Source: Escherichia coli (GTDB taxonomy: Bacteria > Pseudomonadota > Gammaproteobacteria > Enterobacterales > Enterobacteriaceae). Taken from it: a stretch of DNA of 64,000 nt. The notes beneath the pieces are model-generated. The model had not been told where the DNA came from and did not search any database. It saw nothing but the letters and a program-made list of their open reading frames with translations. How positions within the stretch are numbered: the first letter of the stretch is position 1; every line of letters starts with the position of its first letter. The stretch lies in assembly GCF_003018115.1 (NCBI RefSeq), contig NZ_CP027457.1; one strand, given 5' to 3'. Of the stretch, positions 5,503 to 27,823 are shown piece by piece. A program made the translations under genes and the position numbers.

Positions 5503-6219
5503 TCAGTCCTTAAGTTTATTCATAGAAAGCCGCTCTTGGCGTTTAAGCTCATTTAAAGTGAAAAAAGCACATTTATTAGATAAAATATAAATAGTTCCTA
5601 CTAACCGATGTAAGCGCCTCATTTTTTCGGGCATAGAGAATTCAGCATTTTTGACAAACATTAAAGAATCAACCCCAGCAGAGAACATATATTGTAAACT
5701 TTCCATATTAAAAGCCTCTAGTGGATTTACTTCGTTAATATCAATACTATTAACAGACCTCTCTATTTCGAGGTAATCTTCACTTGTCATTGAATAGTCT
5801 ATTTTATGAGCGAATTTATTGCGGATAGAATTCAGCTTAACTAAAGAATTTGCAATTGAGAGAGGTAAACCTAAAGCAACACAGATCTCCAGTTTTGGAG
5901 TAAAATATCGTGATGGTTTAACGAACTGCTCAGTACCAGGCTTCCTAACATTGTTGATGAATACTTCCAAGAAATTCTCAATCAATAGGCTAAGTCTTAG
6001 CAAGACTGATGCTTCGTCATTTATACTTAGTAAAGGTGCAAATTTTTCTGCGTCAAGAAAGAAACCGAGGTCATTATTAATCGCTACATATCCAGTTAGA
6101 TTGTTATTTGACTTCATATTCATAAAAACCTTATCTTGTATATTAGCGGCATATTGTACCATAAATTGAATCGTGGTTTGTTCTAAGAATGGACACAAGA
6201 ACTTCCTCTCCTCACTCAT
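5503..6219 (-). CDS. hypothetical protein with a HEPN-like R-N-x-x-A-H motif (possible Abi-type RNase)
   Basis: AT-rich ORF; motif SIRNKFAH matches the HEPN Rx4-6H signature in its common RNxxAH form. Start uncertain: track starts at TTG 6228, ATG at 6219 (MSEER), or ATG at 6123 (MNMKS, preceded by AAGG). Confidence 0.5.
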   Translation of the reverse strand: MSEERKFLCPFLEQTTIQFMVQYAANIQDKVFMNMKSNNNLTGYVAINNDLGFFLDAEKFAPLLSINDEASVLLRLSLLIENFLEVFINNVRKPGTEQFVKPSRYFTPKLEICVALGLPLSIANSLVKLNSIRNKFAHKIDYSMTSEDYLEIERSVNSIDINEVNPLEAFNMESLQYMFSAGVDSLMFVKNAEFSMPEKMRRLHRLVGTIYILSNKCAFFTLNELKRQERLSMNKLKD

Positions 6220-6265
6220 AAGAGACAACCATACTCAAATCTCCCACATTGCAGGAGATTTGAGT

Positions 6266-6868
6266 ATGAACACGTCACCGTGGAACAAAGACCGTATCAT
6301 CGCCCAAAAAAGACCACTTCAGATATCTCATATCTGGGAGATCCGAATCCGGCTTGAACTGGAAGGTAAAACGCGCGATTTAGCTCTGTTCAATATGGCC
6401 CAGGACAGTAAGCTTCGAGGCTGTGATCTGGTCAAACTCAAAGTATCGAATGTGGCATATGGTAGCTCGGTTTCAAGCAGAGAAACGGTGTTGCAACAAA
6501 AAACCGGTAACCTTGTGCAATTCGAGATAACCAAAGGGACAAGAGAAGCTGTTGCTGCATTGATAAAGCTTGGCAATTTGCACAGTAAAGACTTCTTGTT
6601 TCGGTCTCGGGTCGGAACTAATCGGCACATATCAACCCAGCAATACAGCCGAATTTTTCATGGGTGGGTAGAAAAGCTTGGTCTCGAAGCTTCGCTGTAC
6701 AGCACACAATCCATGAGAAGAACAAAACCTTACCTAATCTACAAGAAAACCAAGAATCTCCGGATCATCCAACTTCTGTTGGGTCATAAGAAACTGGAAA
6801 GCACGATCCGTTATCTGGGCATTGAAGTCGATGATGCGTTAGAGACCTCTGAATCGATTGAAGTCTAA
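6266..6868 (+). CDS. short (~200 aa) tyrosine recombinase, catalytic domain only (FimB/FimE-sized)
   Basis: C-terminal LLGHKKLESTIRYLGIE (His...Tyr box), upstream Arg and HSMRRT boxes; start at ATG 6266 preceded by AGGAG at 6254-6258. Confidence 0.7.
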   Translation: MNTSPWNKDRIIAQKRPLQISHIWEIRIRLELEGKTRDLALFNMAQDSKLRGCDLVKLKVSNVAYGSSVSSRETVLQQKTGNLVQFEITKGTREAVAALIKLGNLHSKDFLFRSRVGTNRHISTQQYSRIFHGWVEKLGLEASLYSTQSMRRTKPYLIYKKTKNLRIIQLLLGHKKLESTIRYLGIEVDDALETSESIEV

Positions 6869-6895
6869 GGTTGTCAGAGCTGCAATAGCAGCCCC

Positions 6896-6910
6896 GTGCC
6901 AGGAGCGGAC
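6896..6910. repeat. 15-bp direct repeat copy B (GTGCCAGGAGCGGAC)
   Basis: Exact match to 5385-5399, same orientation, 28 nt past the recombinase stop codon. Confidence 0.6.
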
Positions 6911-7026
6911 CTAACTAAGTTCATACAACATTGATTATTGAAGATTAGGTCAGAAATAAATACTTTATTTTGATAATTTAGTTACGTTAGAACACCGCAA
7001 TGTACAACGTAAAAATGAGGAATAAT

Positions 7027-8388
7027 ATGACTCGGAGTGAAATAAACGTCTGGGATGAGAGAAGAGGTACCAATAGTCATCGAGTGGAGGAGATTCGATC
7101 TGAAGCTCAGCACGACCTTTCTCGATTGATTCACTCGTCTGCTTTCAGACGATTACAATCCAAAACACAGGTTCTTGGTCTGGGTGAAAGTGATTTCTAC
7201 CGCACACGACTGACTCATTCTATGGAAGTCGCACAAATCGGTTCAGGTCTTCTTGCTAAGTTGAAAATAAAATATAAAGGTAAAGAGCAAGAGCAATTTT
7301 TACCAGATAACGCTCTTATGCAGGCAGTATGTCTCGCACATGATATTGGACATCCTCCATTTGGTCACGGCGGTGAGGTAGCTCTTAACTACTGTATGCA
7401 GGATTACGGTGGTTTTGAAGGAAACGGTCAGACGCTTCGCATTCTCTCGAAACTAGATAAGTATACCTTAGAACACGGACTCGATCCTACACGCAGACTT
7501 CTGCTAGGCATACTGAAATATCCGGTTAAATACTCGGAGCTAGTGGTTACAAAAGACAGAATCCCGGTCACTATCGGATCACCAAACTGGCTCTTTAAGT
7601 CATCTGATTTTAAACCTCCAAAATGCTATCTAGATTCAGAATGCGATGTTGTAAAATTTGCTCTCTCACCATTTACTGAACAGGATCGGAGGCTTTTTAC
7701 TTCCGTTGAAGATGGTCAAACTAAATCCGATCATAAAAAAGCTTCTTATAAAGCTCTCGATACAACTATAATGGATCTTGCCGATGAAATTTCGTATTCG
7801 CTGCACGATTTGGAGGATGCTATTTCTCTCGGAATGGTGACACGAGAAATGTGGATGGAGCATTTCAGTGAACATGAAACCCTATTTACTAACTGCCATG
7901 GAAAAATATTTTCCGAAACATGCCAATCTGTAGCGGATAGCCTTTTTGGTGAAAGTTACAAGAGAAAAGAGTGCATCGGGATGCTGGTTCACCTGATGAT
8001 TACAAGCGTTGAGCTTATTACAAAGAATCCAGCATTCGAATGTGGCATGCTCAAATATAATGCGGTCCTTCCGGAAGCGGTCGAAGCACTACGGTTGAAA
8101 ATTTTCAAACTGGTCAAAAATAAAGTAATTAAGCATGAAAATGTACAGCAGCTTGAATTCAAGGGACAAAAGTTGATTGTTGAGCTCTTCGGTGTGTTGG
8201 CGAACGATCCGTGTCGGTTTCTACCTGCCTCAACGAGGGAAATTTACGAGCGGCAGACTAGCTTAGACAAGAAGGCTGGTATGCGAGTCATTTGCGACTA
8301 TGTTTCAGGGATGACTGATGACTATGCAACAAAGCTTTATGAGAAGATCCTTATTCCACGCAAAGGGTCTATTTTTGACCATCTCTAA
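7027..8388 (+). CDS. dGTP triphosphohydrolase-like HD-domain protein (candidate anti-phage dGTPase)
   Basis: HD motifs RLTHSMEV, HDIGHPPFGH, DLADEISYSLHDLEDA, YVSGMTDDYA; alignable by eye to E. coli Dgt but AT-rich and shorter (453 aa); start at ATG 7027 with GAGG six nt upstream. Confidence 0.8.
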   Translation: MTRSEINVWDERRGTNSHRVEEIRSEAQHDLSRLIHSSAFRRLQSKTQVLGLGESDFYRTRLTHSMEVAQIGSGLLAKLKIKYKGKEQEQFLPDNALMQAVCLAHDIGHPPFGHGGEVALNYCMQDYGGFEGNGQTLRILSKLDKYTLEHGLDPTRRLLLGILKYPVKYSELVVTKDRIPVTIGSPNWLFKSSDFKPPKCYLDSECDVVKFALSPFTEQDRRLFTSVEDGQTKSDHKKASYKALDTTIMDLADEISYSLHDLEDAISLGMVTREMWMEHFSEHETLFTNCHGKIFSETCQSVADSLFGESYKRKECIGMLVHLMITSVELITKNPAFECGMLKYNAVLPEAVEALRLKIFKLVKNKVIKHENVQQLEFKGQKLIVELFGVLANDPCRFLPASTREIYERQTSLDKKAGMRVICDYVSGMTDDYATKLYEKILIPRKGSIFDHL

Positions 8389-8449
8389 CACGGTAAGAAT
8401 GATACTCTGAGTTCAATTGACCTATAAACATTAACCAAGGCATCTACCA

Positions 8450-8470: not shown

Positions 8471-9414
8471 ATTCTGAATTTGTTCATGCAGAATCGGTGA
8501 ACGTTCTCATCTGAGCGTTAAACGCCAATAATCATTGATCTACACTGATCATTAATACACCTTAATACCATTAGCGTCTTACTCCGTTATGAGAACAAAC
8601 GCGAACTTCCGCTGTTCGCTCAAAGCAGACCATTCGCTCAGTTAACGCATCAGTGTCGTGCTAGAAGTAGAAGTGGTTAACAACAATGTGAGTTAATCAA
8701 CGGAGAGCAGGTCAACTCTAACCTGTATCAAAAAACAAATGTGTCATAAAGATGCCGCATGCCTTAATTTGAGTATAATTGAGACGGAAGTAGACGGTTT
8801 ATGACTAGATATTGTTGATATATAGCTATTTGAAGAGTTGTAGCGCAAGCGCATAGCCCAAACTAATAACGCTACGCCCCTTATCAAAGAGCGGCAACGA
8901 TGCACAGCTCGCACGAGACAATATTCGCACAAGAAATCAGGTTCGGAAATAACCAGCTCTGGCATGGCGGGGAGAGTATCAATGGTCAGGCTTTCGGTAA
9001 GATGCGGCGGGATGAGGTCGGCGTGGGTTACAGCAGTACAAGGTCGCCCACAGAGGGTAAGCCACAGCGTGGAATCCTCGGTTTCTATCAGGGATTCGGC
9101 GAAGCGGGCGCAGTTGTCGACCAAGACGATGAAATCCATTGTGGCATTATAAGGGAACGAACAATAGATCGAGTAAATCGCAGTCAGGGACAAGGATTGT
9201 AGTCATAGAGAAGTCTCCTGTAACGGTTTTCAGGAGGCTAATCCCGACGCCTGATTTCGCAGGCGCGGAAAGAGAGGATACTGCGACCATTAATCCGCCA
9301 CAAGTCATTTACGTACATAAATCGCGCAGTCAGATCCGACTCCCACTGTAGTTCTTGAACTTGATACCACATTTAGCTAATTTAGCTAAATTATCCAGTA
9401 TACCAGTGGTTGCC

Positions 9415-9660
9415 ATGAATATGAATGAAGATGAGATTTATCGCCATATCCGGCAGGCACTTTCCAGTGCGCCGCGTAACCAGTACACCGTCGAGCTACA
9501 CCTGCAAATGATTAAATATGCCGACGAACTGGAACACATTACGGCAAAAGCCTTTTGCGAAGGCACCGGTCTGAGCCAGAGCCTCGGTACCGAATTCAGC
9601 AAAATGCGTAACTTAACCCGTCGGTTGAAGGCCGCCGGTCTGAATACCGATCTGCTGTAA
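9415..9660 (+). CDS. small hypothetical protein immediately upstream of hsdM
   Basis: ORF 9355-9660 has protein-like composition but no convincing Shine-Dalgarno before TTG 9355 or ATG 9415/9421; ends 40 nt before hsdM. Confidence 0.3.
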   Translation: MNMNEDEIYRHIRQALSSAPRNQYTVELHLQMIKYADELEHITAKAFCEGTGLSQSLGTEFSKMRNLTRRLKAAGLNTDLL

Positions 9661-9699
9661 CCGACTTACGGCAGATTATCGCGCAAAACGAGATATTTA

Positions 9700-12138
9700 A
9701 TGGCTATCAAAAAAACCGAACTCTATTCTTCCCTGTGGGCAAGCTGCGACGAACTGCGTGGCGGGATGGACGCCAGCCAGTACAAAGACTATGTACTGAC
9801 CCTGCTGTTTATGAAGTACGTTTCCGATAAGTATAAAGGCGATCCTTACGGGATGATCGTGATACCCAAAGGAGCCAGCTTTGACGATATGGTTGCGCTG
9901 AAAAATGACAAAGAGATCGGCGACAAAATCAACAAAATCATCCACAAGCTGGCGGAAGAGAACGGCCTGAAGGGCGTCATCGACGAAGCCGACTTTAACG
10001 ACGAAGATAAGCTCGGCAAAGGCAAGGAAATGATTGACCGCCTGAGCAAGCTTGTCGGTATCTTTGAAGGGTTAGATCTCTCCAGCAACCGGGCCGAAGG
10101 CGACGATCTGTTGGGCGATGCCTATGAATATCTGATGCGTCACTTCGCAACCGAATCCGGCAAGAGTAAAGGGCAGTTTTACACTCCGGCGGAGGTGTCA
10201 CGTATTCTGGCGAAGGTGATTGGTATTACTCCCGATACGCCGCGAGATGCAACGGTTTATGACCCAACCTGTGGCTCTGGTTCGCTGCTGTTGAAAGTGA
10301 ATGATGAAGCCCGGCGCGGACTATCGATTTTCGGCCAGGAGATGGATAACGCTACCAGTGCACTGGCGCGGATGAACATGATTCTGCATAACAATGCCAC
10401 CGCGAAAATCTGGCAGGGTAATACGCTGAGCGATCCGCAGTGGAAAGAGGCGAACGGCAAACTGAAAGCCTTCGATTTTGCCGTGGCGAACCCGCCTTTT
10501 TCCAATAAAAACTGGACCAACGGGTTGACGCCGAAAAAAGATCCGTTTGAACGCTTCGGCTGGGGCATTCCGCCGGAGAAAAACGGCGATTATGCTTTTT
10601 TGCTGCATATCATTAAAAGCCTGAAAAGTACCGGCAAAGGCGCGGTGATCCTGCCCCATGGCGTACTGTTTCGCGGTAACGCCGAGGCAAATATCCGTGA
10701 AAATCTAATCAAGCAGGGCTATATCAAAGGCGTTATTGGTTTGCCGGCCAACCTGTTTTACGGCACCGGCATCCCGGCGTGCATTATTGTGATTGATAAA
10801 GAGCACGCCCACAGCCGCAAAGGCATTTTTATGATCGACGCCAGTCGGGGCTTTATCAAAGATGGCAACAAGAACCGCCTGCGTAGCCGAGATATTCACC
10901 GCATTGTGGACGTGTTCAACCATCAGCGAACGGTGCCGGGCTACAGCCGGATGGTGCCCTCCAGCGAGATCGCCGGAAATGATTACAACCTGAATATTCC
11001 TCGCTATATCGAGAGCGGCGAGCCGGAAGATTTGCACGATCTGACCGCGCACTTACAGGGCGGTATTCCAGCACGCGATGTGGATGCTTTGCAGGATTAC
11101 TGGCGGGTATTCCCTGCCCTGCGCAACGTGCTGTTTGCTGACGACCGTTCCGGTTACTGTCGGGCGCAGGTGAACGCGCAGCAGGTGAAACCAACCATTC
11201 TGGCACATCAGGAGTTTAAGGATTTTGCCACCCGCAGCCTGCTACCGTTTAAAGCGTGGGTGAAAGAGGCAAGTCTGGAAGAGATTCGCAAAGGTGATAA
11301 ACCCAAAGCGCTGATCCACGATATCAGCGAGATGTTGCTTGTGCAGTACGCCAACAGTGAGTTGCTGAACAAGTACAGCGTGTACCAGATCCTGATGGAT
11401 TACTGGGCTGATGTCATGCAGGACGATGTGTATGTGATTATGCAGGATGGCTGGCAAGCCGCCGCGCAAATCCGCGAGCTTCAACCGGTGAAAGGCAAAG
11501 ATGGCAAAAACATCTGGAAAGAAACGCACGATTTCGAGTTTACCAAACAGCGCTACAAGGCCGATGTGCTACCCCGTTCACTAGTGGAAATTCGCTGCTT
11601 CCCGGAACTGCTGGATACGTTGAACCGCGCGCAGGAGCGCAGTGAAGAAGCCAGTCGTCAGCTAGCGGAACTCATCGAGGAGCAGGCAGGGGAAGAGGAT
11701 CTGCTGGCTGAGGCGAAGAACGATAAAGATAAGGTGACGCAAAAGCTGGTGAATGCCCGTCTGGCACAGTTGAAGAAAACCCCTGCCGACCCAGATGAGC
11801 TGGCAGTGCTGAACCGCTGTCTGGCGCTGATTAAGGCCGAGGCCAGTGCGAAAAAAGCGCTGAAAGCCGCACAGGAAGCGTTGGATCGAGCGGTATTTAA
11901 ACATTATCCCACGCTGGATGAAACAGCGATTAAAACGCTGGTAGTGCAGGATAAGTGGCTGGCAACGTTGCAGGCAGGAATCAAGGCGGAGATTGAGCGT
12001 ATTACCCAGCAACTGGCGTCGCGCGTAAAGGAGCTGGAAGAGCGTTATGCTGAACCGTTGCCAGCGCTTGAAGCCTCCGTTGAGGCGTTGAGCGAGAAAG
12101 TGGCCGGGCATTTGCGGGCGATGGGGCTGGAGTGGTGA
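9700..12138 (+). CDS. hsdM: type I restriction-modification N6-adenine DNA methyltransferase subunit, long form (812 aa)
   Basis: N-terminal HsdM signature LWASCDELRGGMDASQYKDYVLTLLFMKYVSD, AdoMet motif DPTCGSGSLL, catalytic NPPF; about 300-aa C-terminal extension rich in charged/coiled-coil-like residues. Confidence 0.95.
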   Translation: MAIKKTELYSSLWASCDELRGGMDASQYKDYVLTLLFMKYVSDKYKGDPYGMIVIPKGASFDDMVALKNDKEIGDKINKIIHKLAEENGLKGVIDEADFNDEDKLGKGKEMIDRLSKLVGIFEGLDLSSNRAEGDDLLGDAYEYLMRHFATESGKSKGQFYTPAEVSRILAKVIGITPDTPRDATVYDPTCGSGSLLLKVNDEARRGLSIFGQEMDNATSALARMNMILHNNATAKIWQGNTLSDPQWKEANGKLKAFDFAVANPPFSNKNWTNGLTPKKDPFERFGWGIPPEKNGDYAFLLHIIKSLKSTGKGAVILPHGVLFRGNAEANIRENLIKQGYIKGVIGLPANLFYGTGIPACIIVIDKEHAHSRKGIFMIDASRGFIKDGNKNRLRSRDIHRIVDVFNHQRTVPGYSRMVPSSEIAGNDYNLNIPRYIESGEPEDLHDLTAHLQGGIPARDVDALQDYWRVFPALRNVLFADDRSGYCRAQVNAQQVKPTILAHQEFKDFATRSLLPFKAWVKEASLEEIRKGDKPKALIHDISEMLLVQYANSELLNKYSVYQILMDYWADVMQDDVYVIMQDGWQAAAQIRELQPVKGKDGKNIWKETHDFEFTKQRYKADVLPRSLVEIRCFPELLDTLNRAQERSEEASRQLAELIEEQAGEEDLLAEAKNDKDKVTQKLVNARLAQLKKTPADPDELAVLNRCLALIKAEASAKKALKAAQEALDRAVFKHYPTLDETAIKTLVVQDKWLATLQAGIKAEIERITQQLASRVKELEERYAEPLPALEASVEALSEKVAGHLRAMGLEW

Positions 12139-13445
12139 TGGTGGATTTAATGGTGAATGAGCAACGATCAGGTACGGCGGGGAAAGATGTGCCTGCGGGG
12201 TATAAGCTGACTGAGGTGGGGGTGATTCCTGAGGATTGGGTAGTAATCTCTATTGATGACTGTACAACCAAAGTTGGTAGTGGAAAAACACCAACTGGTG
12301 GAGCATCTGTTTATATTGATAGCGGACGCCCTTTTGTCCGTAGCCAAAATGTTGATTGGGGAAGATTAGATCTCGCCGATGTCGTACATATTACAGATGA
12401 AACCCATAACACATTCTCTGGTTCTGAAATTCAGCAAGATGATGTTTTACTCAACATAACGGGAGCATCTATCGGCCGATGCGCTAAAGCTGATTTTAGG
12501 GTTATAGGTGGTAATGTTAACCAACATGTTTGCATCATCAGAACAGAGGCAAAAAAACTCTCCCCATCCTTACTGGTTGAATTAATCAATTCAAATTATG
12601 GACAAAACCAGATTGATAGTTATCAAGCCGGAGGAAACAGAGAAGGACTGAATTTTTCTCAAGTTAAAAATCTTAAGTTTGCTATTACACCAAACTCCCT
12701 TGAACAAACGGAAATTGTCAGAACATTAAATGATATTAATGCATTCACTCTCGCTCTGGAAAACTTAATTGCTAAAAAACAGGCCATAAAAGCCGCTGCT
12801 ATGCAACAACTACTCACCGGTAAAACCCGTTTGCCGCAGTTTGCGTTGCGCAAAGATGGATCTGCTAAGAGATATAAAAAGAGCAAGTTGGGGGAGACTC
12901 CAGAAGATTGGGCAGTTAATAATATTGGAGATTTATTCTCCATTACCGCAGGAGGAGATTTAAGACAGTCTGAATTCTCTAATATTCAATCTGAAAAACA
13001 TCTTTACCCTATTTATTCCAATGCAATTAGTCATTATGGTTTATATGGCTATTGCCAGAGTTATGATTATGTTGGTGACTATCTAACAATCACTGCGAGG
13101 GGAGGAATCGGCCATGCCGTGGCAAGAAAAGGAAGATTCTGTGCAATTGGACGATTATTAGTTCTTAGTCCAAAAGGAGATTCAAACGTAAAATTTTATG
13201 AAGGGTATATAAACCAATACTTATCATTTGCAAATGAGAGCACTGGAGTCCCTCAACTTACAGCTCCTCAAGTTGCAAAATATCCGGTTGTTTCCCCATG
13301 CATTGAAGAACAAACCGCCATCGCCACCATCCTCTCCGATATGGACAAGGAAATTCAGACCCTGCAACAACGTCTGGACAAAACCCGTCAGCTTAAACAG
13401 GGGATGATGCAGGAGCTGTTAACCGGGAAAACACGCTTAATATAA
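12138..13445 (+). CDS. hsdS: type I restriction-modification specificity subunit with two target-recognition domains
   Basis: Two AT-rich variable blocks separated and followed by conserved LTGKTRL repeats ([13 protein letters not shown] and [11 protein letters not shown]); ATG at 12138 overlaps the hsdM TGA (TGATG). Confidence 0.9.
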
Positions 13446-13456
13446 AAGGGAAACCT

Positions 13457-14107
13457 ATGACTACAGCGCCAGCCTCAATCCGCAAAAAGCCCTGATCTGG
13501 CGTATCGTCCATCGGGACAATATCCCGTGGATTCTGGACAATGGTCTGCACTGCGGCAACAGCCCGGTGCAGGCTGCTAACTGGATCAATATCGGCAACC
13601 CGGAGCTTATCGGCAAGCACGCCGGACATCCGGTACCTGTCGGGACGGGCGGGACACTGCGTGACTATGTGCCATTTTATTTTACCCCCTTCTCGCCAAT
13701 GCTGATGAACATCCACAGCGGACGTGGCGGCATTAAGCAACGCCCCAATGAAGAGATCGTTATTCTGGTCAGCAGCCTGCGGCACGTGGCAGCACACGAC
13801 GTGCCCTTCGTGTTTACCGACAGCCATGCTTACTATAACTGGACCAACTACTACACCAGTCTGGATAGTCTGGACCAGATCGACTGGCCCATTTTGCAGG
13901 CACGGGACTTTCGCCGCGATCCAGACGATCCGGCTAAATTTGAACGCTATCAGGCAGAGGCGCTAATCTGGCAACACTGCCCGATCTCGCTGCTGGATGG
14001 GATAATTTGTTACAGCGAAGAGGTCAGGTTACAATTAGAACAATGGTTGTTTCAGCGTAATCTAACAATGTCCGTTCACACACGGGCTGGATTGGTACTT
14101 CTCATGA
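13457..14107 (+). pseudogene. darT: DarT-like (DUF4433) DNA ADP-ribosyltransferase gene, reading frame disrupted as read
   Basis: ATG 13457 with AAGGG upstream opens a frame that stops after 12 codons; DarT-like sequence ([46 protein letters not shown]) continues in the -1 frame from about 13459 to 14103; the original frame resumes for the last codons before a TGA that overlaps the darG ATG (ATGA at 14104-14107). Confidence 0.55.
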
Positions 14108-15171
14108 TCACATATACACAAGGCAATTTACTGGACGCACCGGTGGAAGCTCTGGTGAATACGGTTAATACCGTCGGTGTCATGGGGAAAGGCATCGCGT
14201 TGATGTTTAAAGAGCGCTTCCACGAAAATATGAAAGCCTATGCCCTCGCCTGCAAACAAAAGCAGGTGATCACCGGCAAAATGTTCATTACCGAAACCGG
14301 GGAACTGATGGGACCGCGCTGGATTGTTAATTTTCCGACCAAACAGCACTGGCGCGCTGACTCCCGCATGGGGTGGATTGAAGATGGCTTACAAGACTTA
14401 CGTCGATTTTTGATTGAAGAGAACGTGCAATCCATCGCCATTCCACCGCTGGGCGCAGGCAACGGTGACTTGAACTGGCCGGACGTTCGGGCGCAGATTG
14501 AATCTGCCCTTGGCGACCTTCAGGACGTTGATATCCTGATTTACCAACCAACTGAAAAATACCAGAACGTTGCCAAAAGCACTGGCGTAAAAAAGCTCAC
14601 TCCCGCCAGAGCCGCCATCGCTGAACTGGTGCGTCGCTACTGGGTATTGGGGATGGAGTGCAGCCTACTGGAAATCCAGAAACTGGCCTGGCTGTTACAA
14701 CGCGCCCTTAAGCAGCATCAACAGGACGATATCCTCAAACTGCGGTTTGAAGCTCACTATTATGGCCCCTATGCGCCCAATCTGAACCATCTGCTTAATG
14801 CGCTGGACGGCACCTATCTTAAAGCCGAGAAACGCATCCCGGACAGCCAACCGCTGGATGTGATCTGGTTTAACGATCAGAAAAAAGAACACGTTAATGC
14901 GTATCTGAACAGCGAAGCCAGAGAGTGGCTACCGGCGCTGGAGCAGGTCAGCCAGTTAATTGACGGCTTTGAATCGCCGTTTGGTCTGGAGCTGCTGGCA
15001 ACCGTAGACTGGTTGCTGAGCCGTGGCGAATGTCAACCAACACTGGATTCCGTTAAGGAAGGGCTGCACCAGTGGCCTGCGGGCGAACACTGGGCCAGCC
15101 GTAAGTTGAGGCTGTTTGATAATAATAATCTGCAATTTGCCATTAACCGCGTAATGGAGTTCCATTGCTGA
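14104..15171 (+). CDS. darG: DarG-like macrodomain protein (predicted antitoxin / ADP-ribosyl hydrolase)
   Basis: [39 protein letters not shown] with IPPLGAGNG is a macrodomain signature matching my recollection of DarG; as read it is fused in frame to the upstream DarT-like region (track ORF 13567-15171). Confidence 0.7.
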
Positions 15172-15189
15172 GGGTTTAAGGAGCGCCTT

Positions 15190-18100
15190 TTGAGTACCGT
15201 GGGCCAGCGCGAACGCGCCACACAGCAGCGTCTGATTCAGTTTTTTGTTGAAGATTTAGGTTACCGCCATCTGAGTCACCGCACCGGGTACACCGGGAAC
15301 AGCAACATCGACACTAATATACTGAGCGCGTGGCTAAAACGGCGCGGCGTTAATGATACGTTGATCACCCGGGCGTTGCGGCAACTGGATTCCGCCGCCG
15401 CTCTGGGCGAAGGCAAAAAACTCTATTACGCCAATAAAGAGGTCTATCGCCTGCTACGTTACGGCGTGAAAGACAAAGAAGGCGCAGGCGAGCAGAACCA
15501 AACCGTGTGGCTGATTGACTGGGCCAACCCACAAGCCAATGATTTCGCCATCGCCGATGAGGTGACGGTCAAAGGCGAGTACTGCAAGCGCCCGGATCTG
15601 GTGCTGTACGTTAACGGCATTGCGCTGGGCGTGATTGAACTTAAGCGTTCGTCAGTGCACGTCAGCGAAGGCATCCGGCAGAATCTCGATAATCAAAAGA
15701 AAACCTTTATCCGCGATTTCTTCACCACTATGCAGTTAGTGATGGCGGGCAACGATACGCAGGGCCTGCGCTACGGCACCATCGAAACCCCGGAAAAATA
15801 CTATCTGGAGTGGAAAGAAGATAATCCAGGCGACTATACACATAAACTCGACTTTCATTTAAGTCGTCTGTGTAGCAAATCCAGGCTGTTGGATATCGTC
15901 CATAATTACATTGCCTTTGATGTCGGAGTGAAAAAACTCTGCCGCCATAATCAGTTCTTCGGCGTCGAGGCGGCTAAACAACATATTGCCCGTCGTGAAG
16001 GCGGTATTATCTGGCACACACAGGGATCGGGTAAAAGCCTGACGATGGTCTGGCTGGCGAAGTGGATCCGTGAAAATGTGCCAAACTCCCGCGTGTTGAT
16101 TGTGACTGACCGCACCGAACTGGATGAACAGATCGAAAGCGTGTTTATGGGCGTGAATGAAGATATTTATCGCACCTCCAGCGGCAACGATCTTATCGCA
16201 ACGCTCAATCATCCTAACCCGTGGCTCATTTGCTCGCTGGTGCATAAATTTGGTCGTCGCAGCGAAGCTGAAGACAATGCGGCTACCGACGCCTTTATCA
16301 CCGAATTACAGCAGTCCCTGACGAAAACATTCCGCGCCAAAGGCGATCTGTTTGTTTTTGTGGACGAGTGCCACCGCACACAATCCGGCAAGCTGCATAA
16401 CGCCATGACTGCCATTCTGCCGGACGCCCTGTTTATCGGTTTTACCGGCACACCGCTGATGAAGAAAGATAAGAAGAAGTCGGTTGAGGTGTTCGGCCCT
16501 TATATCCATACCTATAAATTTGATGAAGCGGTGGCCGACGGTGTGGTGCTGGATCTGCGCTACGAGGCACGCGATATTGACCAGTATCTGACATCAGAGA
16601 AAAAGGTCGATGACTGGTTTGAAGCCAAGACTCGCGGTTTGTCGAATTTAGCCAGGACCCAGCTTAAGCAAAAGTGGGGATCAATGCAGAAGCTGCTCTC
16701 CAGCAAGTCGAGGCTGGAGCAGATCGTTAACGACATTTTGCTGGATATGGATACCCGTCCACGCCTGATGGACGGGCGCGGCAACGCCATGCTGGTATGC
16801 AGCAGTATCTATCAAGCCTGCAAGGTTTACGAGATGTTCAGCCAGACCGAGCTGGCAGGAAAAGTAGCGATTGTGACCAGCTATCGCCCCGATGCCGCCA
16901 GCATCAAAGGCGAAGAAACGGGCGAAGGGTTAACGGAGAAACTCTCTAAACACGCCACCTATCGTAAAATGTTGGCTGACTATTTTGAACAAAGTGAAGA
17001 GAAGGCCGCCGCACGCATTACCGAGTTCGAGCGGGAAGTGAAACAGCGTTTTATTGAAGAGCCGGGGCAAATGCGCCTGCTTATCGTGGTGGATAAGCTG
17101 CTGACTGGCTTTGACGCGCCGTCCGCCACCTATCTCTACATTGATAAAACCATGACCGACCATACGCTGTTTCAGGCGATTTGTCGGGTGAACCGGCTGG
17201 ACGGTGAGGATAAAGAGTATGGCTATATTATCGATTATAAAGATCTGTTCCGTTCGCTGGATAAAGCGATTACCGATTACACCACGGGCGCGTTTGATGA
17301 TTACGATCGGGACGATGTGGCCGGGTTGCTGAAAGACAGGCTGGAGCAGGCGCAACTGGATCTCGACAGCGCGCTGGAGATGGTTCGCAGCTTATGTGAA
17401 CCCGTCAAAACCCCGCGCAGCCTGCAGGACTATCAGCACTATTTTTGCGGTGAATCAGGAGAGAATCAGACTTCGTTAAACGAAAAAGAGGCGCTGCGCC
17501 TGACATTTTACCAGTGCGTCGCCCGTCTGCTACGCGCTTATGCCAGCATCGCCAATGAAATGCCGGAAGCAGGCTACACTGCCGAAGAGGTAGAGAGCAT
17601 TCGCGCCGAAGTCGCTGAATTCGAAAAACTGCGCTATGAGATTAAGCTGACCAGCGGCGATCTTCTGGATATGAAGCGCTTTGAACCCGCTATGCGTCAT
17701 TTACTGGATATGTATGTTCGCGCCGATGATAGCGAAGTGCTGATGGATTTTGAAGAGTTAAGTCTGATTGAACTGATTGTCGAGAAAGGCTTGGCGGCGA
17801 CCGTCGCCCTGCCGGATGATATCCGTAATAATCAGGATGCGATGGCGGAAACCATCGAAAACAACGTGCGCAAAACCATCGTGGATGAAAACCCGGTTAA
17901 CCCAAAATACTATGGACGCATGTCGCAGCTGCTGGATGAACTGATTACCCTTCGCCGACAAAATGCGCTCAATTATCAGCAGTATCTGGAACGTATCCGC
18001 GATTTGTGTAAACAAGTCATCCGCCCGGAGCAAACCGCCGGAGCGTGCTACCCTGCCACCATGGATACACAAGCAAAGCGCGCCTTCTATGATAACTTCG

Positions 18101-18285
18101 GCCACGACGAGGTACTGGCGACCCGCATAGATACGACGATTCGCTATACCAAAAGGGCAGAGTGGATTGGCGATCGTTTTAAAGAACGGGAAATTGCCAA
18201 CGCATTACGTGAAGAGACCGCCAGCTATAATATTGATATTGATGAGGTGATAGCGCTTGCCCGTCAGCAGAAGGAATATCACTGA
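15190..18285 (+). CDS. hsdR: type I restriction-modification restriction subunit (SF2 helicase/nuclease)
   Basis: 1031 aa; helicase motifs HTQGSGKSLT, VFVDECHRTQ, FIGFTGTP; apparent TTG start at 15190 with AAGGAG eight nt upstream. Confidence 0.93.
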   Translation: MSTVGQRERATQQRLIQFFVEDLGYRHLSHRTGYTGNSNIDTNILSAWLKRRGVNDTLITRALRQLDSAAALGEGKKLYYANKEVYRLLRYGVKDKEGAGEQNQTVWLIDWANPQANDFAIADEVTVKGEYCKRPDLVLYVNGIALGVIELKRSSVHVSEGIRQNLDNQKKTFIRDFFTTMQLVMAGNDTQGLRYGTIETPEKYYLEWKEDNPGDYTHKLDFHLSRLCSKSRLLDIVHNYIAFDVGVKKLCRHNQFFGVEAAKQHIARREGGIIWHTQGSGKSLTMVWLAKWIRENVPNSRVLIVTDRTELDEQIESVFMGVNEDIYRTSSGNDLIATLNHPNPWLICSLVHKFGRRSEAEDNAATDAFITELQQSLTKTFRAKGDLFVFVDECHRTQSGKLHNAMTAILPDALFIGFTGTPLMKKDKKKSVEVFGPYIHTYKFDEAVADGVVLDLRYEARDIDQYLTSEKKVDDWFEAKTRGLSNLARTQLKQKWGSMQKLLSSKSRLEQIVNDILLDMDTRPRLMDGRGNAMLVCSSIYQACKVYEMFSQTELAGKVAIVTSYRPDAASIKGEETGEGLTEKLSKHATYRKMLADYFEQSEEKAAARITEFEREVKQRFIEEPGQMRLLIVVDKLLTGFDAPSATYLYIDKTMTDHTLFQAICRVNRLDGEDKEYGYIIDYKDLFRSLDKAITDYTTGAFDDYDRDDVAGLLKDRLEQAQLDLDSALEMVRSLCEPVKTPRSLQDYQHYFCGESGENQTSLNEKEALRLTFYQCVARLLRAYASIANEMPEAGYTAEEVESIRAEVAEFEKLRYEIKLTSGDLLDMKRFEPAMRHLLDMYVRADDSEVLMDFEELSLIELIVEKGLAATVALPDDIRNNQDAMAETIENNVRKTIVDENPVNPKYYGRMSQLLDELITLRRQNALNYQQYLERIRDLCKQVIRPEQTAGACYPATMDTQAKRAFYDNFGHDEVLATRIDTTIRYTKRAEWIGDRFKEREIANALREETASYNIDIDEVIALARQQKEYH

Positions 18286-19001
18286 TGCCAATCATGCAAA
18301 TAGGCTCGTTACACTTGCTGGTCAACCGTAAGGCGATTAAGAATCTGCATATCAGCGTGCTGCCGCCTGATGGCAAAGTCCGCGTTTCAGCGCCGGAACA
18401 TATGACGGAGACGGCGATTCGTATGGCGGTTGCTTCACGCTTTCGCTGGATCAGAAAACAGCAGCAGGATTTCGCCAGACAGCCTCGTCAATCAGAGAGG
18501 GAAATGGTCAGCGGAGAGTGCCACTATCTTTGGGGCCGAAGATATCGCCTACTTGTGATTGAGCGTCACGGGCGTCACGAAGTAAAAGTTGCGGGAAATA
18601 ATAAGCTCCAGCTTTATGTTCAACCGGGAACCCGTGATGAAAATAAGGCATTGGCGTTAAGTGAATTTTATCGACATGAACTAAAACAGCAGGTGGCTAA
18701 GCTTCTACCTGAATGGCAGGACCGAATCGGTGTTCCCCTAACATTCTGGGGCATCAAAAAGATGAAAACCTTTTGGGGCACCTGTAACACTACAACAAAA
18801 CGAATCTGGCTCAATCTGGAGCTAATTAAGAAGCCGCCGGAGTGTCTGGAGTATATTCTGGTGCATGAACTGGTTCATCTTCTGGAACGTCACCATAATG
18901 CTCGCTTCCGGTTGCATATGGATCGGTTTATTCCTGACTGGCGTGAGCGTCGGGATTTGTTAAATAATATGCCGTTAGCGTTTGAGGCATGGGAGTATTG
19001 A
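18285..19001 (+). CDS. HExxH zinc metallopeptidase (M48/DUF45-like) coupled to hsdR
   Basis: HELVHLLE motif; ATG overlaps the hsdR stop (TGATG at 18283-18287). Confidence 0.8.
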   Translation: MPIMQIGSLHLLVNRKAIKNLHISVLPPDGKVRVSAPEHMTETAIRMAVASRFRWIRKQQQDFARQPRQSEREMVSGECHYLWGRRYRLLVIERHGRHEVKVAGNNKLQLYVQPGTRDENKALALSEFYRHELKQQVAKLLPEWQDRIGVPLTFWGIKKMKTFWGTCNTTTKRIWLNLELIKKPPECLEYILVHELVHLLERHHNARFRLHMDRFIPDWRERRDLLNNMPLAFEAWEY

Positions 19002-19168: not shown

Positions 19169-19452
19169 TAGCATGGTTATCTCCTTAAAAAATTGAGGCG
19201 ACAACTATGCTGACACAGGGGGTTACTCACCGATCTCCTTCACGGTAATACGCAGTTCTTCAGAACCCGCCTCCGATACCAGCCTGGCGGTCGCCCCGGC
19301 GCAACAGAATAAATCAACCATCGTCAGACTGCGATCATTCGTAATGTTCCGGGGACCTCATCTTCAGTAAGCGTAAACTGACCGCCGTATGTAGCCATTA
19401 AGCCAGTATTGGTAACGTAGGTGCCCACCTTTTCAACTAGTGGACACCTGTT

Positions 19453-19878
19453 ATGGAACAGAAAATATTATCCTCAGAACCCCGCAGATCATTTTCAAAT
19501 GAGTTTAAACTTCAAATGGTTAAACTGGCTTCACAACCAGGAGCCTCTGTTGCCCGTATTGCCCGGGAACACGATATCAATGATAACCTCCTGTTCAAAT
19601 GGCTCAGGCTCTGGCAGAACGAAGGGCGTATATCGCGGCGTCTTCCGGTAACAATCTCTTCTGGCGCTGGCGTTGAATTATTACCTGTTGAGATAACGCC
19701 TGATGAGCAGAAAGAGCCTATGGCGGCTCTTACTCCGCTTTTATCCACTCCTTCACAAAGCACAGTCAGTGCCAGTTCCTGTAAAGTTGAGTTCCGCCAC
19801 GGTAACATGACGCTGGAAAATCCTTCACCAGAGCTGCTCACGGTGTTGATCCGTGAACTGACCGGGAGGGGACGATGA
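19453..19878 (+). CDS. tnpA: IS66 accessory protein TnpA (orfA)
   Basis: 141-aa ORF with HTH-like ASVARIAREHDINDNLLFKW; first ORF of the IS66 element. Confidence 0.8.
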   Translation: MEQKILSSEPRRSFSNEFKLQMVKLASQPGASVARIAREHDINDNLLFKWLRLWQNEGRISRRLPVTISSGAGVELLPVEITPDEQKEPMAALTPLLSTPSQSTVSASSCKVEFRHGNMTLENPSPELLTVLIRELTGRGR

Positions 19879-20225
19879 TCTCGCTCCCATCAGGTACCCG
19901 TATCTGGCTCGTTGCCGGCGTTACCGATATGCGTAAATCCTTCAACGGACTGGGAGAACAGGTACAACATGTGCTGAATGATAATCCCTTCTCCGGTCAC
20001 CTGTTTATCTTCCGTGGCCGACGGGGTGACACCGTCAAAATTCTTTGGGCTGATGCTGATGGTCTGTGCCTGTTCACCAAACGCCTGGAGGAAGGCCAGT
20101 TTATCTGGCCTGCGGTACGTGACGGCAAGGTATCCATTACCCGCTCGCAACTGGCAATGCTCCTCGATAAGCTGGACTGGCGTCAGCCAAAAACATCCAG
20201 CCGTAACTCACTGACAATGTTGTAA
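19875..20225 (+). CDS. tnpB: IS66 accessory protein TnpB (orfB)
   Basis: 116 aa; start overlaps the tnpA stop (ATGA); typical IS66 orfB position and size. Confidence 0.8.
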   Translation: MISLPSGTRIWLVAGVTDMRKSFNGLGEQVQHVLNDNPFSGHLFIFRGRRGDTVKILWADADGLCLFTKRLEEGQFIWPAVRDGKVSITRSQLAMLLDKLDWRQPKTSSRNSLTML

Positions 20226-20255
20226 AAAACTCCTGACCGCATTATAAAAACGGTC

Positions 20256-21869
20256 ATGAGTCAGAAATACCTCATTCGCATCGCAGAGCTGGAAAGATTG
20301 CTCTCTGAGCAGGCTGAAGCCCTCCGTCAGAAAGACCAGCAACTGAGTCTGGTTGAAGAGACGGAAGCCTTCCTGCGCTCTGCACTGACACGTGCCGAAG
20401 AAAAGATCGAAGAAGATGAACGGGAAATAGAACATCTGCGGGCTCAGATAGAAAAACTGCGCCGGATGCTGTTCGGTACCCGTTCTGAAAAACTGCGTCG
20501 TGAAGTTGAACTGGCTGAGGCTCTGCTGAAACAACGTGAACAGGACAGCGATCGTTACAGTGGGCGGGAAGACGATCCTCAGGTTCCCCGCCAGTTGCGA
20601 CAGTCGCGCCATCGTCGTCCGTTACCGGCACACCTTCCCCGTGAAATACACCGCCTGGAGCCAGAAGAAAGCTGTTGCCCGGAGTGTGGCGGTGAACTGG
20701 ATTATCTGGGGGAAGTCAGCGCTGAACAGCTGGAACTGGTGAGCAGTGCCCTGAAAGTGATCCGCACAGAACGGGTAAAAAAAGCCTGTACAAAATGTGA
20801 CTGTATTGTTGAAGCACCGGCGCCGTCCCGCCCGATAGAGCGTGGTATCGCGGGCCCCGGATTACTTGCCCGCGTGTTAACGGGAAAATACTGCGAACAT
20901 CTGCCACTGTATCGTCAGAGTGAAATCTTTGCCCGCCAGGGTGTCGAACTGAGCCGGGCCTTACTCTCCAACTGGGTTGACGCGTGCTGCCAGTTAATGA
21001 CACCGGTGAATGATACCCTGTACCGTTATGTAATGAACACCCGCAAGGTTCACACTGATGACACACCGGTAAAGGTACTGGCACCGGGTCAGAAAAAGGC
21101 GAAAACAGGGCGTATCTGGACGTATGTCCGGGATGATCGCAATGTGGGTTCGTCATCTCCTCCAGCGGTCTGGTTCGCGTACTCGCCGAACCGGCAGGGG
21201 AAACACCCGGAGCAACACCTCCGCCCCTTCCGGGGTATCCTGCAGGCGGATGCGTTCACAGGTTACGACAGGTTGTTCAGTGCAGAACGTGAAGGTGGTG
21301 CACTGACAGAAGTTGCGTGCTGGGCCCATGCCCGGCGAAAAATCCACGATGTATACATCAGCAGCAAAAGTGCGACGGCAGAAGAAGCCCTGAAGCGAAT
21401 CAGTGAACTGTACGCCATCGAGGATGAAATACGGGGATTACCGGAGTCAGAGCGTCTTGCCGTCAGGCAGCAGCGAAGCAAAGTGTTACTGACGTCGCTG
21501 CATGAATGGATGGTGGAGAAGAATGGTACGCTGTCGAAAAAATCCAGACTGGGCGAAGCGTTCAGCTATGTACTGAATCAGTGGGATGCCCTCTGTTATT
21601 ACAGTGATGACGGTCTGGCGGAGGCGGATAATAATGCTGCGGAAAGAGCGCTTCGTGCAGTCTGTCTCGGAAAGAAAAACTTTATGTTCTTTGGCAGCGA
21701 TCACGGCGGCGAGCGTGGAGCACTGTTGTACGGGCTGATCGGCACCTGCCGTCTGAACGGTATCGATCCGGAAGCGTATCTGCGCCATATCCTGAGCGTA
21801 CTGCCGGAATGGCCTTCCAACCGAGTTGATGAACTCCTGCCATGGAACGTAGTACTCACCAATAAATAA
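20256..21869 (+). CDS. tnpC: IS66-family transposase TnpC
   Basis: 537 aa; N-terminal coiled-coil/leucine-zipper-like region and Cys cluster CCPECGGE...CTKCDC, ends LLPWNVVLTNK. Confidence 0.9.
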   Translation: MSQKYLIRIAELERLLSEQAEALRQKDQQLSLVEETEAFLRSALTRAEEKIEEDEREIEHLRAQIEKLRRMLFGTRSEKLRREVELAEALLKQREQDSDRYSGREDDPQVPRQLRQSRHRRPLPAHLPREIHRLEPEESCCPECGGELDYLGEVSAEQLELVSSALKVIRTERVKKACTKCDCIVEAPAPSRPIERGIAGPGLLARVLTGKYCEHLPLYRQSEIFARQGVELSRALLSNWVDACCQLMTPVNDTLYRYVMNTRKVHTDDTPVKVLAPGQKKAKTGRIWTYVRDDRNVGSSSPPAVWFAYSPNRQGKHPEQHLRPFRGILQADAFTGYDRLFSAEREGGALTEVACWAHARRKIHDVYISSKSATAEEALKRISELYAIEDEIRGLPESERLAVRQQRSKVLLTSLHEWMVEKNGTLSKKSRLGEAFSYVLNQWDALCYYSDDGLAEADNNAAERALRAVCLGKKNFMFFGSDHGGERGALLYGLIGTCRLNGIDPEAYLRHILSVLPEWPSNRVDELLPWNVVLTNK

Positions 21870-21909
21870 GCGTCAATACGGTGCTCCGTTGACGCTTACA
21901 GCTTTCCCA

Positions 21910-22284
21910 CTATTTCTTGATTCCTAAACGGAACATATCAGTTGGGAATAAAGGTTGTATTATCACTTCATCATTAAAAATGAATAATTTGGGCGATAAA
22001 GCTGTTACGTCATAGATATTTTCAGCGATTAATCTTAGATTTGACCTAAAAACTGGAATACTTGCATCATCTGCAAAGACAAACATGTCATCGTTTTTTA
22101 CAGAGTTTGCACACAATAGCTCATCAAAACTCTCATAATCAGAATGCCAGATCTCTGACCAAGTAACACTTCCTTTCGCGAGAGGGTACTTATTTAAAAT
22201 GCCCAGAGCCTCCTGCTGAGCCAGCCCCTCTACTATATTAAAATCAGCACTCAGTGCTTCCCGACACTCATCAAATAAAGTCAT
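21910..22284 (-). CDS. cdiI: orphan CDI immunity protein (pair 4)
   Basis: 124-aa ORF directly downstream of orphan cdiA-CT 22290-23657 with a 5-nt gap. Confidence 0.6.
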   Translation of the reverse strand: MTLFDECREALSADFNIVEGLAQQEALGILNKYPLAKGSVTWSEIWHSDYESFDELLCANSVKNDDMFVFADDASIPVFRSNLRLIAENIYDVTALSPKLFIFNDEVIIQPLFPTDMFRLGIKK

Positions 22285-22289
22285 TTGCT

Positions 22290-24719: not shown

Positions 24720-24736
24720 ATTGTTTTCAGCAACAA

Positions 24737-27822: not shown

Positions 27823-27823
27823 T

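What the first reader, a model, noticed from the sequence alone, without database searches (positions are those of the whole stretch)
13457..14107. darT frame is interrupted at two points; as read the toxin domain is fused to DarG and lacks its start
The ATG at 13457 has a good Shine-Dalgarno (AAGGG) but terminates after 12 codons. The DarT-like sequence runs in the -1 frame from about 13459 to 14103 without an ATG, then continues in frame straight into darG. Adding one A to the A5 tract at 13484-13488 would give a continuous [25 protein letters not shown]... Removing one T in GGATTGG (about 14089-14095) would give ...HTRAGWYFS followed by TGA overlapping the darG ATG (ATGA), the canonical coupled arrangement. 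Two compensating single-base indels bounding exactly one toxin gene point to either homopolymer assembly errors or a genuinely inactivated or covalently fused toxin.
Basis: seen in the sequence. Interest (0 to 1): 0.6.

Follow-up and report, generated by a model that had tools for sequence, protein, structure and literature searches.

The report
Dead darT toxin gene, E. coli
The toxin gene of a known E. coli anti-phage toxin-antitoxin pair (DarT/DarG, inside a type I restriction system) is a real, inherited pseudogene with several independent inactivating mutations, already flagged as frameshifted in RefSeq. It is ordinary gene decay, not a sequencing error or a designed toxin-antitoxin fusion.

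Summary
The reading-frame facts hold. ATG 13457 stops after 12 codons, the DarT frame has no start, and it runs in frame into darG. The 5' lesion is not an A5-tract slip. It is a 7-bp deletion between CCTATG direct repeats at the start codon; the true N-terminus is [13 protein letters not shown].

The lesions are not assembly errors. Both occur identically in five complete E. coli genomes and in hundreds of draft contigs.

The allele also carries R57H at the catalytic arginine, which is Arg in 124/124 homologues; EPEC R57A behaves like the inactive enzyme. Sublineages show further decay, including a 226-bp deletion. The darG ORF is intact but has a private G122D at an invariant glycine.

The locus is the published RptR-RMS-DarTG2-M48 defence island with its toxin dead. 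The 534-aa "fusion" ORF is an incidental read-through. PGAP already annotates darT here as a frameshifted pseudogene. Interest is low.

The parts
9372..9389 (+). Two tandem TTTAGCTAA repeats (RptR operator) in the island promoter
   Evidence: Alignment with E2348/69, which has three. The repeats are defined in PMC12255303. Two copies is the common E. coli state.
9421..9660 (+). rptR (79-aa HTH repressor of the island)
   Evidence: PGAP WP_024175231.1. Homologous to EPEC RptR WP_000343040.1 (PMC12255303).
9700..12138 (+). hsdM, type I R-M methylase subunit, intact
   Evidence: ORF; PGAP WP_000985461.1.
12138..13445 (+). hsdS, specificity subunit, intact
   Evidence: ORF; PGAP WP_000228012.1.
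13454..13459 (+). Surviving copy of the CCTATG direct repeat. This is the junction of the 7-bp deletion that puts the darT start codon out of frame with the gene body.
   Evidence: Alignments A1 and A2.
13457..13495 (+). 12-codon out-of-frame ORF ([12 protein letters not shown]) read from the original darT SD and ATG
13456..14107 (+). darT pseudogene body (codons 3-218 of the intact gene, plus one extra T)
   Evidence: The repaired frame scores 256 bits on NF048013 toxin_DarT, cut-off 150. Pfam PF14487 matches. PGAP annotates it 'frameshifted'.
13618..13620 (+). CAC = His57 in place of the catalytic Arg (Thermus R51 / EPEC R57)
   Evidence: Arg in 124/124 homologues. EPEC R57A behaves like inactive E170A (PMC13368585).
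13660..13662 (+). CGT = Arg71 in place of the active-site His/Asn (Thermus H65)
   Evidence: Arg is never seen at this position in 124 homologues. The position is variable (N/H/S).
14092..14093 (+). TT where intact alleles have a single T. This +1 insertion replaces the last four DarT residues and fuses the frame to darG.
14104..15171 (+). darG antitoxin ORF (355 aa), intact
   Evidence: NF048014 scores 443 bits, cut-off 250. It is 98% identical to EPEC DarG. The catalytic Lys80 is present.
14467..14469 (+). GAC = Asp122 in DarG at an otherwise invariant Gly of the macrodomain PPLGAGNGG loop
   Evidence: Gly in 117/117 other sequences.
15190..18285 (+). hsdR, restriction subunit, intact
   Evidence: PGAP WP_000108736.1.
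18285..19001 (+). M48 metallopeptidase, last gene of the island
   Evidence: PGAP WP_001122107.1, the same protein as in EPEC.

Best explanation
Window 9372-19001 is the RptR / type I R-M / DarTG2 / M48 (RRDM) anti-phage defence island of E. coli. In this lineage its toxin gene darT is a genuine, vertically inherited, multi-hit pseudogene.

Shown:
1. A 7-bp slipped-strand deletion between CCTATG direct repeats leaves the SD and ATG in place but one base out of register with the gene. Ribosomes starting there would make a 12-residue peptide and stop.
2. The invariant catalytic Arg57 is His, and active-site residue 71 is Arg.
3. A T duplication 12 nt before the stop codon shifts the darT frame into the darG frame. 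This follows from the ATGA overlap, which puts darG one base out of register with darT.

Inferred:
- No active DarT is made.
- The 534-aa 'DarT-DarG' ORF is an incidental read-through with no selected function.
- DarG, if made, starts at its own ATG 14104 and has lost translational coupling to darT. It persists as an orphan antitoxin that is itself starting to drift (G122D).
- The type I R-M part of the island remains functional.
- Toxin-first decay is the expected route, because losing the antitoxin first would be lethal.
For: Placement of the lesions:
- Alignment to intact darT of EPEC E2348/69 and DA33137 locates both indels.

Genuine and inherited, not an artefact:
- Both lesions are present in exactly the same 5 of 248 darTG-positive complete genomes: 2014C-4135 (USA), 1303 (Germany), C311 (Hong Kong), CFIAFB20180511 (Canada) and STEC2017-197 (Switzerland).
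- The island context is the same in strain 1303.
- PGAP marks darT as a frameshifted pseudogene in all five and calls darG intact.
- The exact 534-aa ORF is on 65 contigs and its 1303 variant on 230 contigs. The DarG allele is indexed in 670 blocks of the collection. None of the 26 contigs read has a called darT, and the 3 loci retrieved carry the same lesions.

Catalytically dead:
- R57 is Arg in 124/124 homologues and aligns to Thermus R51. That residue is needed for NAD+ polarisation and proton abstraction.
- EPEC DarT2 R57A behaves like the inactive E170A.
- The GTG-13567 ORF lacks residues 1-39, which include the beta1 and NAD-binding residues.

Continuing decay within the clade:
- A 226-bp deletion flanked by TGCGGCA repeats in STEC2017-197, two nonsynonymous SNPs, and a further truncated variant P0259.

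Recent loss:
- The allele differs from the majority allele at 21 synonymous versus 6 nonsynonymous codons. It therefore evolved as a working gene until recently.
Against: - No expression data are available. Whether DarG or a truncated fusion is actually made is untested.
- R57H itself has not been assayed; only R57A (EPEC) and mutation of Thermus R51 (substitution not specified in the review read) have.
- The order of the four lesions is unknown. No intact or single-lesion intermediate was found, but that look-up works by exact sequence only.
- The darG ORF stays open in hundreds of assemblies. This could mean selection for retention rather than simple lag.
Confidence: 0.9

Rival explanations
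1. Assembly or sequencing artefact: darT is really intact and the two indels are errors in this assembly.
For: The second lesion is a single-base length change (T to TT). Many long-read assemblies do carry indel errors.
Against: Identical lesions occur in five complete genomes from independent laboratories and in roughly 295 or more draft contigs from NCBI, ENA and Logan. Lesion 1 is a 7-bp deletion, and neither lesion lies in a homopolymer run. Lineage-private missense changes and a further 226-bp deletion travel with them.
Confidence: 0.01
2. Recoded or covalently fused active toxin. A -1 ribosomal slip on CGC-AAA-AAG (13481-13489) would join ATG 13457 to the DarT frame. The product would be a full-core DarT fused in cis to DarG: a self-neutralised single-chain TA or defence protein.
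For: The arithmetic works: the DarT frame is -1 relative to ATG 13457, and A-AAG is a slippery tetranucleotide in E. coli (general knowledge). The region is more structured than shuffled controls (z = -3.15). The fused frame is open for 575 codons.
Against: - The catalytic Arg57 is His.
- The heptamer is not canonical (C AAA AAG). The nearest downstream hairpin starts 17 nt after the site, and the tract itself sits in a hairpin loop.
- The A5G tract is unchanged in intact alleles, where it is read in another frame, so it did not evolve for this purpose.
- STEC2017-197 deletes 226 bp of the toxin and other members add missense changes.
- Fused ORFs elsewhere (P0050, P0010, P0021) contain out-of-frame stretches or truncations, not linkers.
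Confidence: 0.03
3. An N-terminally truncated, catalytically dead DarT remnant fused to DarG (534 aa from GTG 13567) is expressed and selected. It might act as a DarG with an added ssDNA-binding or DarT-mimicking module, or as an anti-addiction factor against incoming DarTG elements.
For: The 534-aa ORF is kept open and identical on at least 295 contigs. DarG retains its catalytic Lys80 and full HMM match. Orphan antitoxins acting as anti-addiction modules are an established concept (general knowledge).
Against: No SD precedes GTG 13567. Members of the clade destroy the DarT part further while keeping darG, so the DarT moiety is not under selection. DarG itself carries G122D at an invariant Gly. 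The clade is young, with few SNPs, so an open frame is expected by default.
Confidence: 0.05

Closest known systems
RRDM (RptR-RMS-DarTG2-M48) defence island of EPEC E2348/69 (NAR 2025, PMC12255303; DarTG2 biochemistry in Cell Rep 2020, PMC7003065)
   Same: It has the same seven genes in the same order: rptR, hsdM, hsdS, darT, darG, hsdR, M48. The M48 protein is identical and DarG is 98% identical. The darT-to-darG region is about 97% identical at the DNA level. The promoter uses the same TAGCTA operator repeats.
   Different: darT is dead (7-bp start deletion, R57H, H71R, +T frameshift). DarG has G122D. The promoter has two operator repeats instead of three. hsdS is a different specificity allele. 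The 5' half of darT is a divergent tract (about 8% versus under 1% elsewhere).
Thermus sp. 2.9 DarT (PDB 7OMV-7ON0), the structural reference for DarT2
   Same: The repaired protein aligns over 206 residues (E = 2e-25). Equivalents of Y71, M78, H119 and E160 are conserved as Y77, M84, H126 and E170.
   Different: The R51 equivalent is His and the H65 equivalent is Arg. The gene has no usable start.
Toxin-first decay of type II TA modules / orphan antitoxins
   Same: The toxin is inactivated by several hits while the antitoxin ORF persists. Lesions arise by slippage between short direct repeats.
   Different: Here the module sits inside an intact, still-regulated type I R-M operon. The ATGA overlap makes the toxin frameshift read through into the antitoxin, which creates a spurious 'fusion' ORF that gene callers report as a 534-aa protein.

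Membership tests
DarT (NF048013 / PF14487) DNA ADP-ribosyltransferase toxin | Sequence matches the family HMM above the curated cut-off | tested here: met
   The repaired frame scores 256 bits and the ORF as read scores 208 bits; the cut-off is 150. Pfam DarT E = 2.9e-40. PADLOC DarT matches.
DarT (NF048013 / PF14487) DNA ADP-ribosyltransferase toxin | Complete ORF with a start codon in frame, including the N-terminal beta1 / NAD-binding segment (Thermus H13-N19, K28, L30) | tested here: not met
   The 7-bp deletion puts the ATG out of frame. The first in-frame start is GTG 13567 (codon 40), downstream of those residues.
DarT (NF048013 / PF14487) DNA ADP-ribosyltransferase toxin | Catalytic Arg (Thermus R51 / EPEC R57) | tested here: not met
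   It is His57 here. Arg is present in 124/124 homologues. EPEC R57A behaves like the inactive enzyme.
DarT (NF048013 / PF14487) DNA ADP-ribosyltransferase toxin | Catalytic Glu (Thermus E160 / EPEC E170) and the Y71, M78, H119 equivalents | tested here: met
   E170, Y77, M84 and H126 are present and invariant in the alignment.
DarT (NF048013 / PF14487) DNA ADP-ribosyltransferase toxin | ssDNA thymidine ADP-ribosylation activity and toxicity | not testable with these tools
   Needs an enzymatic or toxicity assay.
DarG (NF048014) macrodomain antitoxin | Full-length match above cut-off, with macro plus C-terminal DarT-binding domains | tested here: met
   443 bits against a cut-off of 250, covering 1-337 of 338 profile positions. 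Macro domain PF01661 matches.
DarG (NF048014) macrodomain antitoxin | Catalytic Lys (K80 in 355-aa numbering, which by my numbering offset corresponds to K54 of PMC7003065) | tested here: met
   K80 is present and invariant in 116/116. K54A abolishes activity in EPEC DarG.
DarG (NF048014) macrodomain antitoxin | Invariant Gly122 of the PPLGAGNGG loop | tested here: not met
   It is Asp122 here. Gly is present in 117/117 others. The functional consequence is unknown.
RRDM defence island | Seven ORFs in the order rptR-hsdM-hsdS-darT-darG-hsdR-M48, with TAGCTA operator repeats upstream of rptR | tested here: met
   Two operator repeats are present, and two suffice for repression (PMC12255303). 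darT is present only as a pseudogene.
Programmed -1 ribosomal frameshift site | Canonical X XXY YYZ heptamer with a stimulatory structure 5-9 nt downstream, conserved for that purpose | tested here: not met
   The site is C AAA AAG. The next hairpin starts 17 nt downstream. The same bases are present in intact alleles in another frame.

The most novel reading that the evidence does not exclude
The retained, still-open darG (alone or as the dead-DarT-DarG read-through protein) is kept by selection. It would act as a stand-alone DNA de-ADP-ribosylase, giving immunity against DarT toxins delivered by incoming mobile elements or phages. Toxin loss would then convert an abortive-infection module into an anti-addiction module inside a working R-M operon.
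Probability: 0.05. Interest if true: 0.4.

Novelty: already known. Interest (0 to 1): 0.13.

Why it matters
It matters little beyond annotation hygiene.

- Gene callers such as Prodigal report this locus as a 534-aa "DUF4433 / RNase III inhibitor" protein in hundreds of E. coli assemblies. That protein also drags DarT and DarG sequences into one 90% cluster. It is a read-through of a pseudogene and should not be counted as a natural DarT-DarG fusion or as an active DarTG2 defence system.
- Strains of this lineage, including the mastitis model strain 1303, should be scored as type I R-M positive and DarTG2 negative in defence-system censuses.
- The lineage is a natural example of toxin-first decay of a TA module embedded in an operon.
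- It also provides a natural R57H variant at DarT's unusual catalytic arginine.

Tried and rejected
1. A5-tract slip as the 5' lesion. Rejected: the tract is invariant in intact alleles.
2. Assembly error. Rejected on the basis of five complete genomes and hundreds of contigs.
3. Conserved natural DarT-DarG fusion. A search of 5.8 billion protein clusters listed only three DarT+Macro proteins among the top 120 hits (P0050, P0010, P0021). Each contains out-of-frame stretches or truncations, so they are independent accidents.
4. Search for an intact or single-lesion intermediate of this allele. Six hypothetical proteins were looked up by exact sequence and none is in the collection. The order of lesions therefore stays unresolved.
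5. Link between darT loss and loss of one RptR operator repeat (two repeats here versus three in EPEC). Rejected: two repeats is the state of nearly all E. coli islands with an intact darT, and two repeats suffice for repression.
6. Programmed -1 frameshift at CAAAAAG. There is no canonical heptamer or correctly spaced structure.
7. Divergence of the 5' half of darT as a sign of long neutral decay. Rejected: changes are 21 synonymous to 6 nonsynonymous, and four of the six replacements are residues common in other DarTs, including Citrobacter. It is a divergent or recombinant functional allele that died recently.
8. Literature search for a described E. coli darT pseudogene. None was found.
9. 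Scans of metagenome contigs and genome contigs were not used, as they were judged unnecessary.

Full report
**Observation**

Reading the window confirms the frame facts.
- ATG 13457 sits behind AAGGG and encodes [12 protein letters not shown], followed by TGA at 13493-13495.
- The frame one base upstream is open from 13441 and encodes a DarT-like sequence. It has no ATG/GTG/TTG until GTG 13567.
- That frame runs on through the darG ATG (14104) to 15171. This produces a 534-aa ORF, or 575 open codons counted from 13447.

**Identity of the locus**

The window is 100% identical over 13380-15220 to E. coli 2014C-4135 (NZ_CP027310.1). The darT-darG region is found in 248 of 5426 complete E. coli genomes. 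The genes are:
- rptR (9421-9660)
- hsdM (9700-12138)
- hsdS (to 13445)
- darT
- darG (14104-15171)
- hsdR (15190-18285)
- M48 (18285-19001)

 This is the seven-gene RRDM defence island characterised in EPEC E2348/69 (PMC12255303). Its DarTG2 module was characterised biochemically in PMC7003065. PGAP already annotates darT here as "frameshifted" and darG as intact.

**Where the lesions really are**

The window was aligned with the intact 657-bp darT genes of E2348/69 and DA33137.
- The A5 tract is invariant, and the ancestral N-terminus is [23 protein letters not shown].
- The 5' lesion is a 7-bp deletion at the start codon. E2348/69 reads AAACCTATGGCCTATGACTAC and the window reads AAACCTATGACTAC. 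One copy of a CCTATG direct repeat has been lost, which is a slipped-strand event.
- The SD and an ATG stay in place, but they are now out of register with the gene. This explains the 12-codon ORF.
- darG overlaps darT by ATGA and lies one base out of register with it. A +1 insertion late in darT therefore reads straight into darG. The "fusion" is a geometric consequence of that overlap, not a design.

**Not an artefact**

Short queries across each lesion match at 100% in exactly the same five complete genomes: 2014C-4135 (USA), 1303 (Germany), C311 (Hong Kong), CFIAFB20180511 (Canada) and STEC2017-197 (Switzerland). All five are annotated with a frameshifted darT.

Support from draft assemblies:
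- The exact 534-aa ORF is recorded on 65 contigs.
- The 1303 variant of that ORF is on 230 contigs.
- The accompanying DarG allele is indexed in 670 blocks of the collection.
- None of the 26 contigs read has a called darT gene, and the three representative loci carry the same lesions.

 Neither lesion is in a homopolymer run.

**Further inactivating changes**

The repaired protein was aligned to Thermus sp. 2.9 DarT (7OMV; chain numbering is the paper's plus one).
- Window residue 57 falls on Thermus R51, and residue 71 falls on Thermus H65.
- The window allele has His57 (CAC, 13618-13620) and Arg71 (CGT, 13660-13662). EPEC and Citrobacter DarT have R57 and H71.
- In an alignment of 124 other DarT homologues (65-97% identity), position 57 is Arg in all 124. 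Arg is never seen at position 71.
- R51 polarises NAD+ and abstracts the thymine N3 proton, and its mutation abolishes activity and toxicity (review PMC9967889).
- EPEC DarT2 R57A gives growth like the inactive E170A and compromises editing (PMC13368585).
- The only in-frame start, GTG 13567, is codon 40. Any product from it would lack beta1 and the NAD-binding residues equivalent to Thermus H13, I14, T15, N19, K28 and L30.

**Recent death, continuing decay**
- Against the majority E. coli allele, the darT body differs at 21 synonymous and 6 nonsynonymous codons. These are concentrated in 13400-13800.
- Four of the six replacements (P39, A43, S109, H112) are common in other DarTs. The tract is therefore a divergent functional allele, not the product of long neutral drift.
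- Within the five-genome clade, over the 4.1 kb from hsdM to darG, two of three SNPs are nonsynonymous changes in darT (13832 Y to S; 13934 A to D).
- The single large deletion in that stretch also falls in darT: 226 bp in STEC2017-197, flanked by TGCGGCA repeats.
- P0259 is a further truncated variant.
- By contrast, the majority darT allele is at least 99% identical in 237 of 249 records. Of the 60 sampled records, 57 show the full 657-bp span, all at 98.8-100% identity.

**DarG**
- The ORF is intact and matches NF048014 at 443 bits.
- It is 98% identical to EPEC DarG.
- It keeps the catalytic Lys80. By my numbering offset this is K54 in the numbering of PMC7003065.
- It carries G122D (GAC, 14467-14469) where Gly is found in 117/117 other DarGs. 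It also carries P40H, at a position where His is never seen.
- This fits relaxed constraint on an orphan antitoxin, or possibly an antitoxin defect that preceded toxin loss. The order cannot be resolved. No intact or single-lesion intermediate was found by exact look-up.

**Fusions elsewhere**

Among the top 120 hits to the conceptual fusion, only three proteins carry both DarT and Macro domains.
- P0050 contains an out-of-frame stretch that replaces the region with the catalytic Glu.
- P0010 is N-terminally truncated and frameshifted near the junction.
- P0021 has an internal deletion and a scrambled C-terminus.

These are independent accidents of the same kind, not a fusion family.

**Side hypotheses**
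- The island promoter has two TTTAGCTAA RptR operator repeats (9372-9389), against three in EPEC. Two is the usual state in E. coli islands with intact darT, and two repeats suffice for repression. There is no link to darT loss.
- A -1 slip on CGC-AAA-AAG would join ATG 13457 to the DarT frame. However, the heptamer is not canonical, the next hairpin starts 17 nt downstream, the bases are unchanged from intact alleles, and the enzyme would still carry H57.

**Verdict**

This is a real, lineage-fixed, multi-hit darT pseudogene in a known defence island, and it is already flagged in RefSeq. The 5' indel placement, the "two single-base compensating indels" reading and the artefact option are wrong. 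A functional fusion is very unlikely.

The practical points are:
- The 534-aa ORF is a gene-calling artefact of a pseudogene.
- This lineage should be scored DarTG2-negative.

Noticed in passing
window 14467-14469 (darG codon 122) and 14221-14223 (codon 40): DarG of this lineage has Asp at a Gly that is invariant in 117/117 other DarGs (the PPLGAGNGG macrodomain loop). It also has His at a Pro found in 103/116 homologues. The orphan antitoxin may itself be drifting or impaired.
   Followed up: partly
window 9372-9389: The island promoter has two TTTAGCTAA RptR operator repeats, where EPEC E2348/69 has three. Nearly all other E. coli copies have the window's length, so the published three-repeat promoter is the minority form (only 4 records fall in the lowest identity band, 80-90%; the one sampled, an O127:H6 record, has the longer span).
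   Followed up: yes
window 15282-17101 (hsdR): The window's hsdR differs at about 38 mostly clustered SNPs from the other four darT-dead genomes, yet is nearly identical to the hsdR of DA33137. This indicates recombination within hsdR between island alleles after darT had died.
   Followed up: partly
window 13400-13800 (5' half of darT) and 14200-14500 (darG): These are mosaic tracts with about 8% and about 4% divergence from the majority E. coli allele, against under 0.3% in hsdR. Some replacements (P39, A43, S109) match Citrobacter koseri DarT, which suggests imported or ancient allelic segments.
   Followed up: partly
L005 (E. coli STEC2017-197, NZ_CP075663.1), locus about 2690-2700: There is an additional 226-bp deletion inside the darT pseudogene between TGCGGCA direct repeats, plus an Ala to Asp SNP. 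PGAP downgrades the name to 'DarT family protein, frameshifted'.
   Followed up: yes
NZ_CP038336.1 (E. coli O157:H7 LSU61), darT start: The match to the majority darT begins at query base 3 instead of base 1. This suggests a change in the ATG start codon in that strain and possibly another independent darT lesion.
   Followed up: no
window about 19450-27200: A cluster of three IS66-family elements (ISEc23, IS682 and one with a frameshifted tnpC) lies immediately downstream of the M48 gene. This matches the IS-flanked context reported for the EPEC island.
   Followed up: no
window about 27200-42800: A contact-dependent inhibition locus: a 9.7-kb cdiA (tRNA nuclease effector) followed by orphan toxin/immunity modules. 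These include a colicin-D-domain protein with its immunity protein and a VENN-motif fragment with a CDI immunity protein.
   Followed up: no
window about 860-8400: Upstream of the island lie Ag43 autotransporter, a GTPase-family protein, a truncated tyrosine recombinase and an anti-phage dGTPase. The R-M/DarTG island is therefore part of a larger integrative defence island, and the same arrangement is seen in strain 1303.
   Followed up: no
protein cluster of P0001: The 534-aa read-through ORF makes DarT (218 aa) and DarG (355 aa) proteins fall into a single 90%-identity cluster of 759 members. This is a clustering artefact that can hide E. coli DarT from searches of that database.
   Followed up: partly
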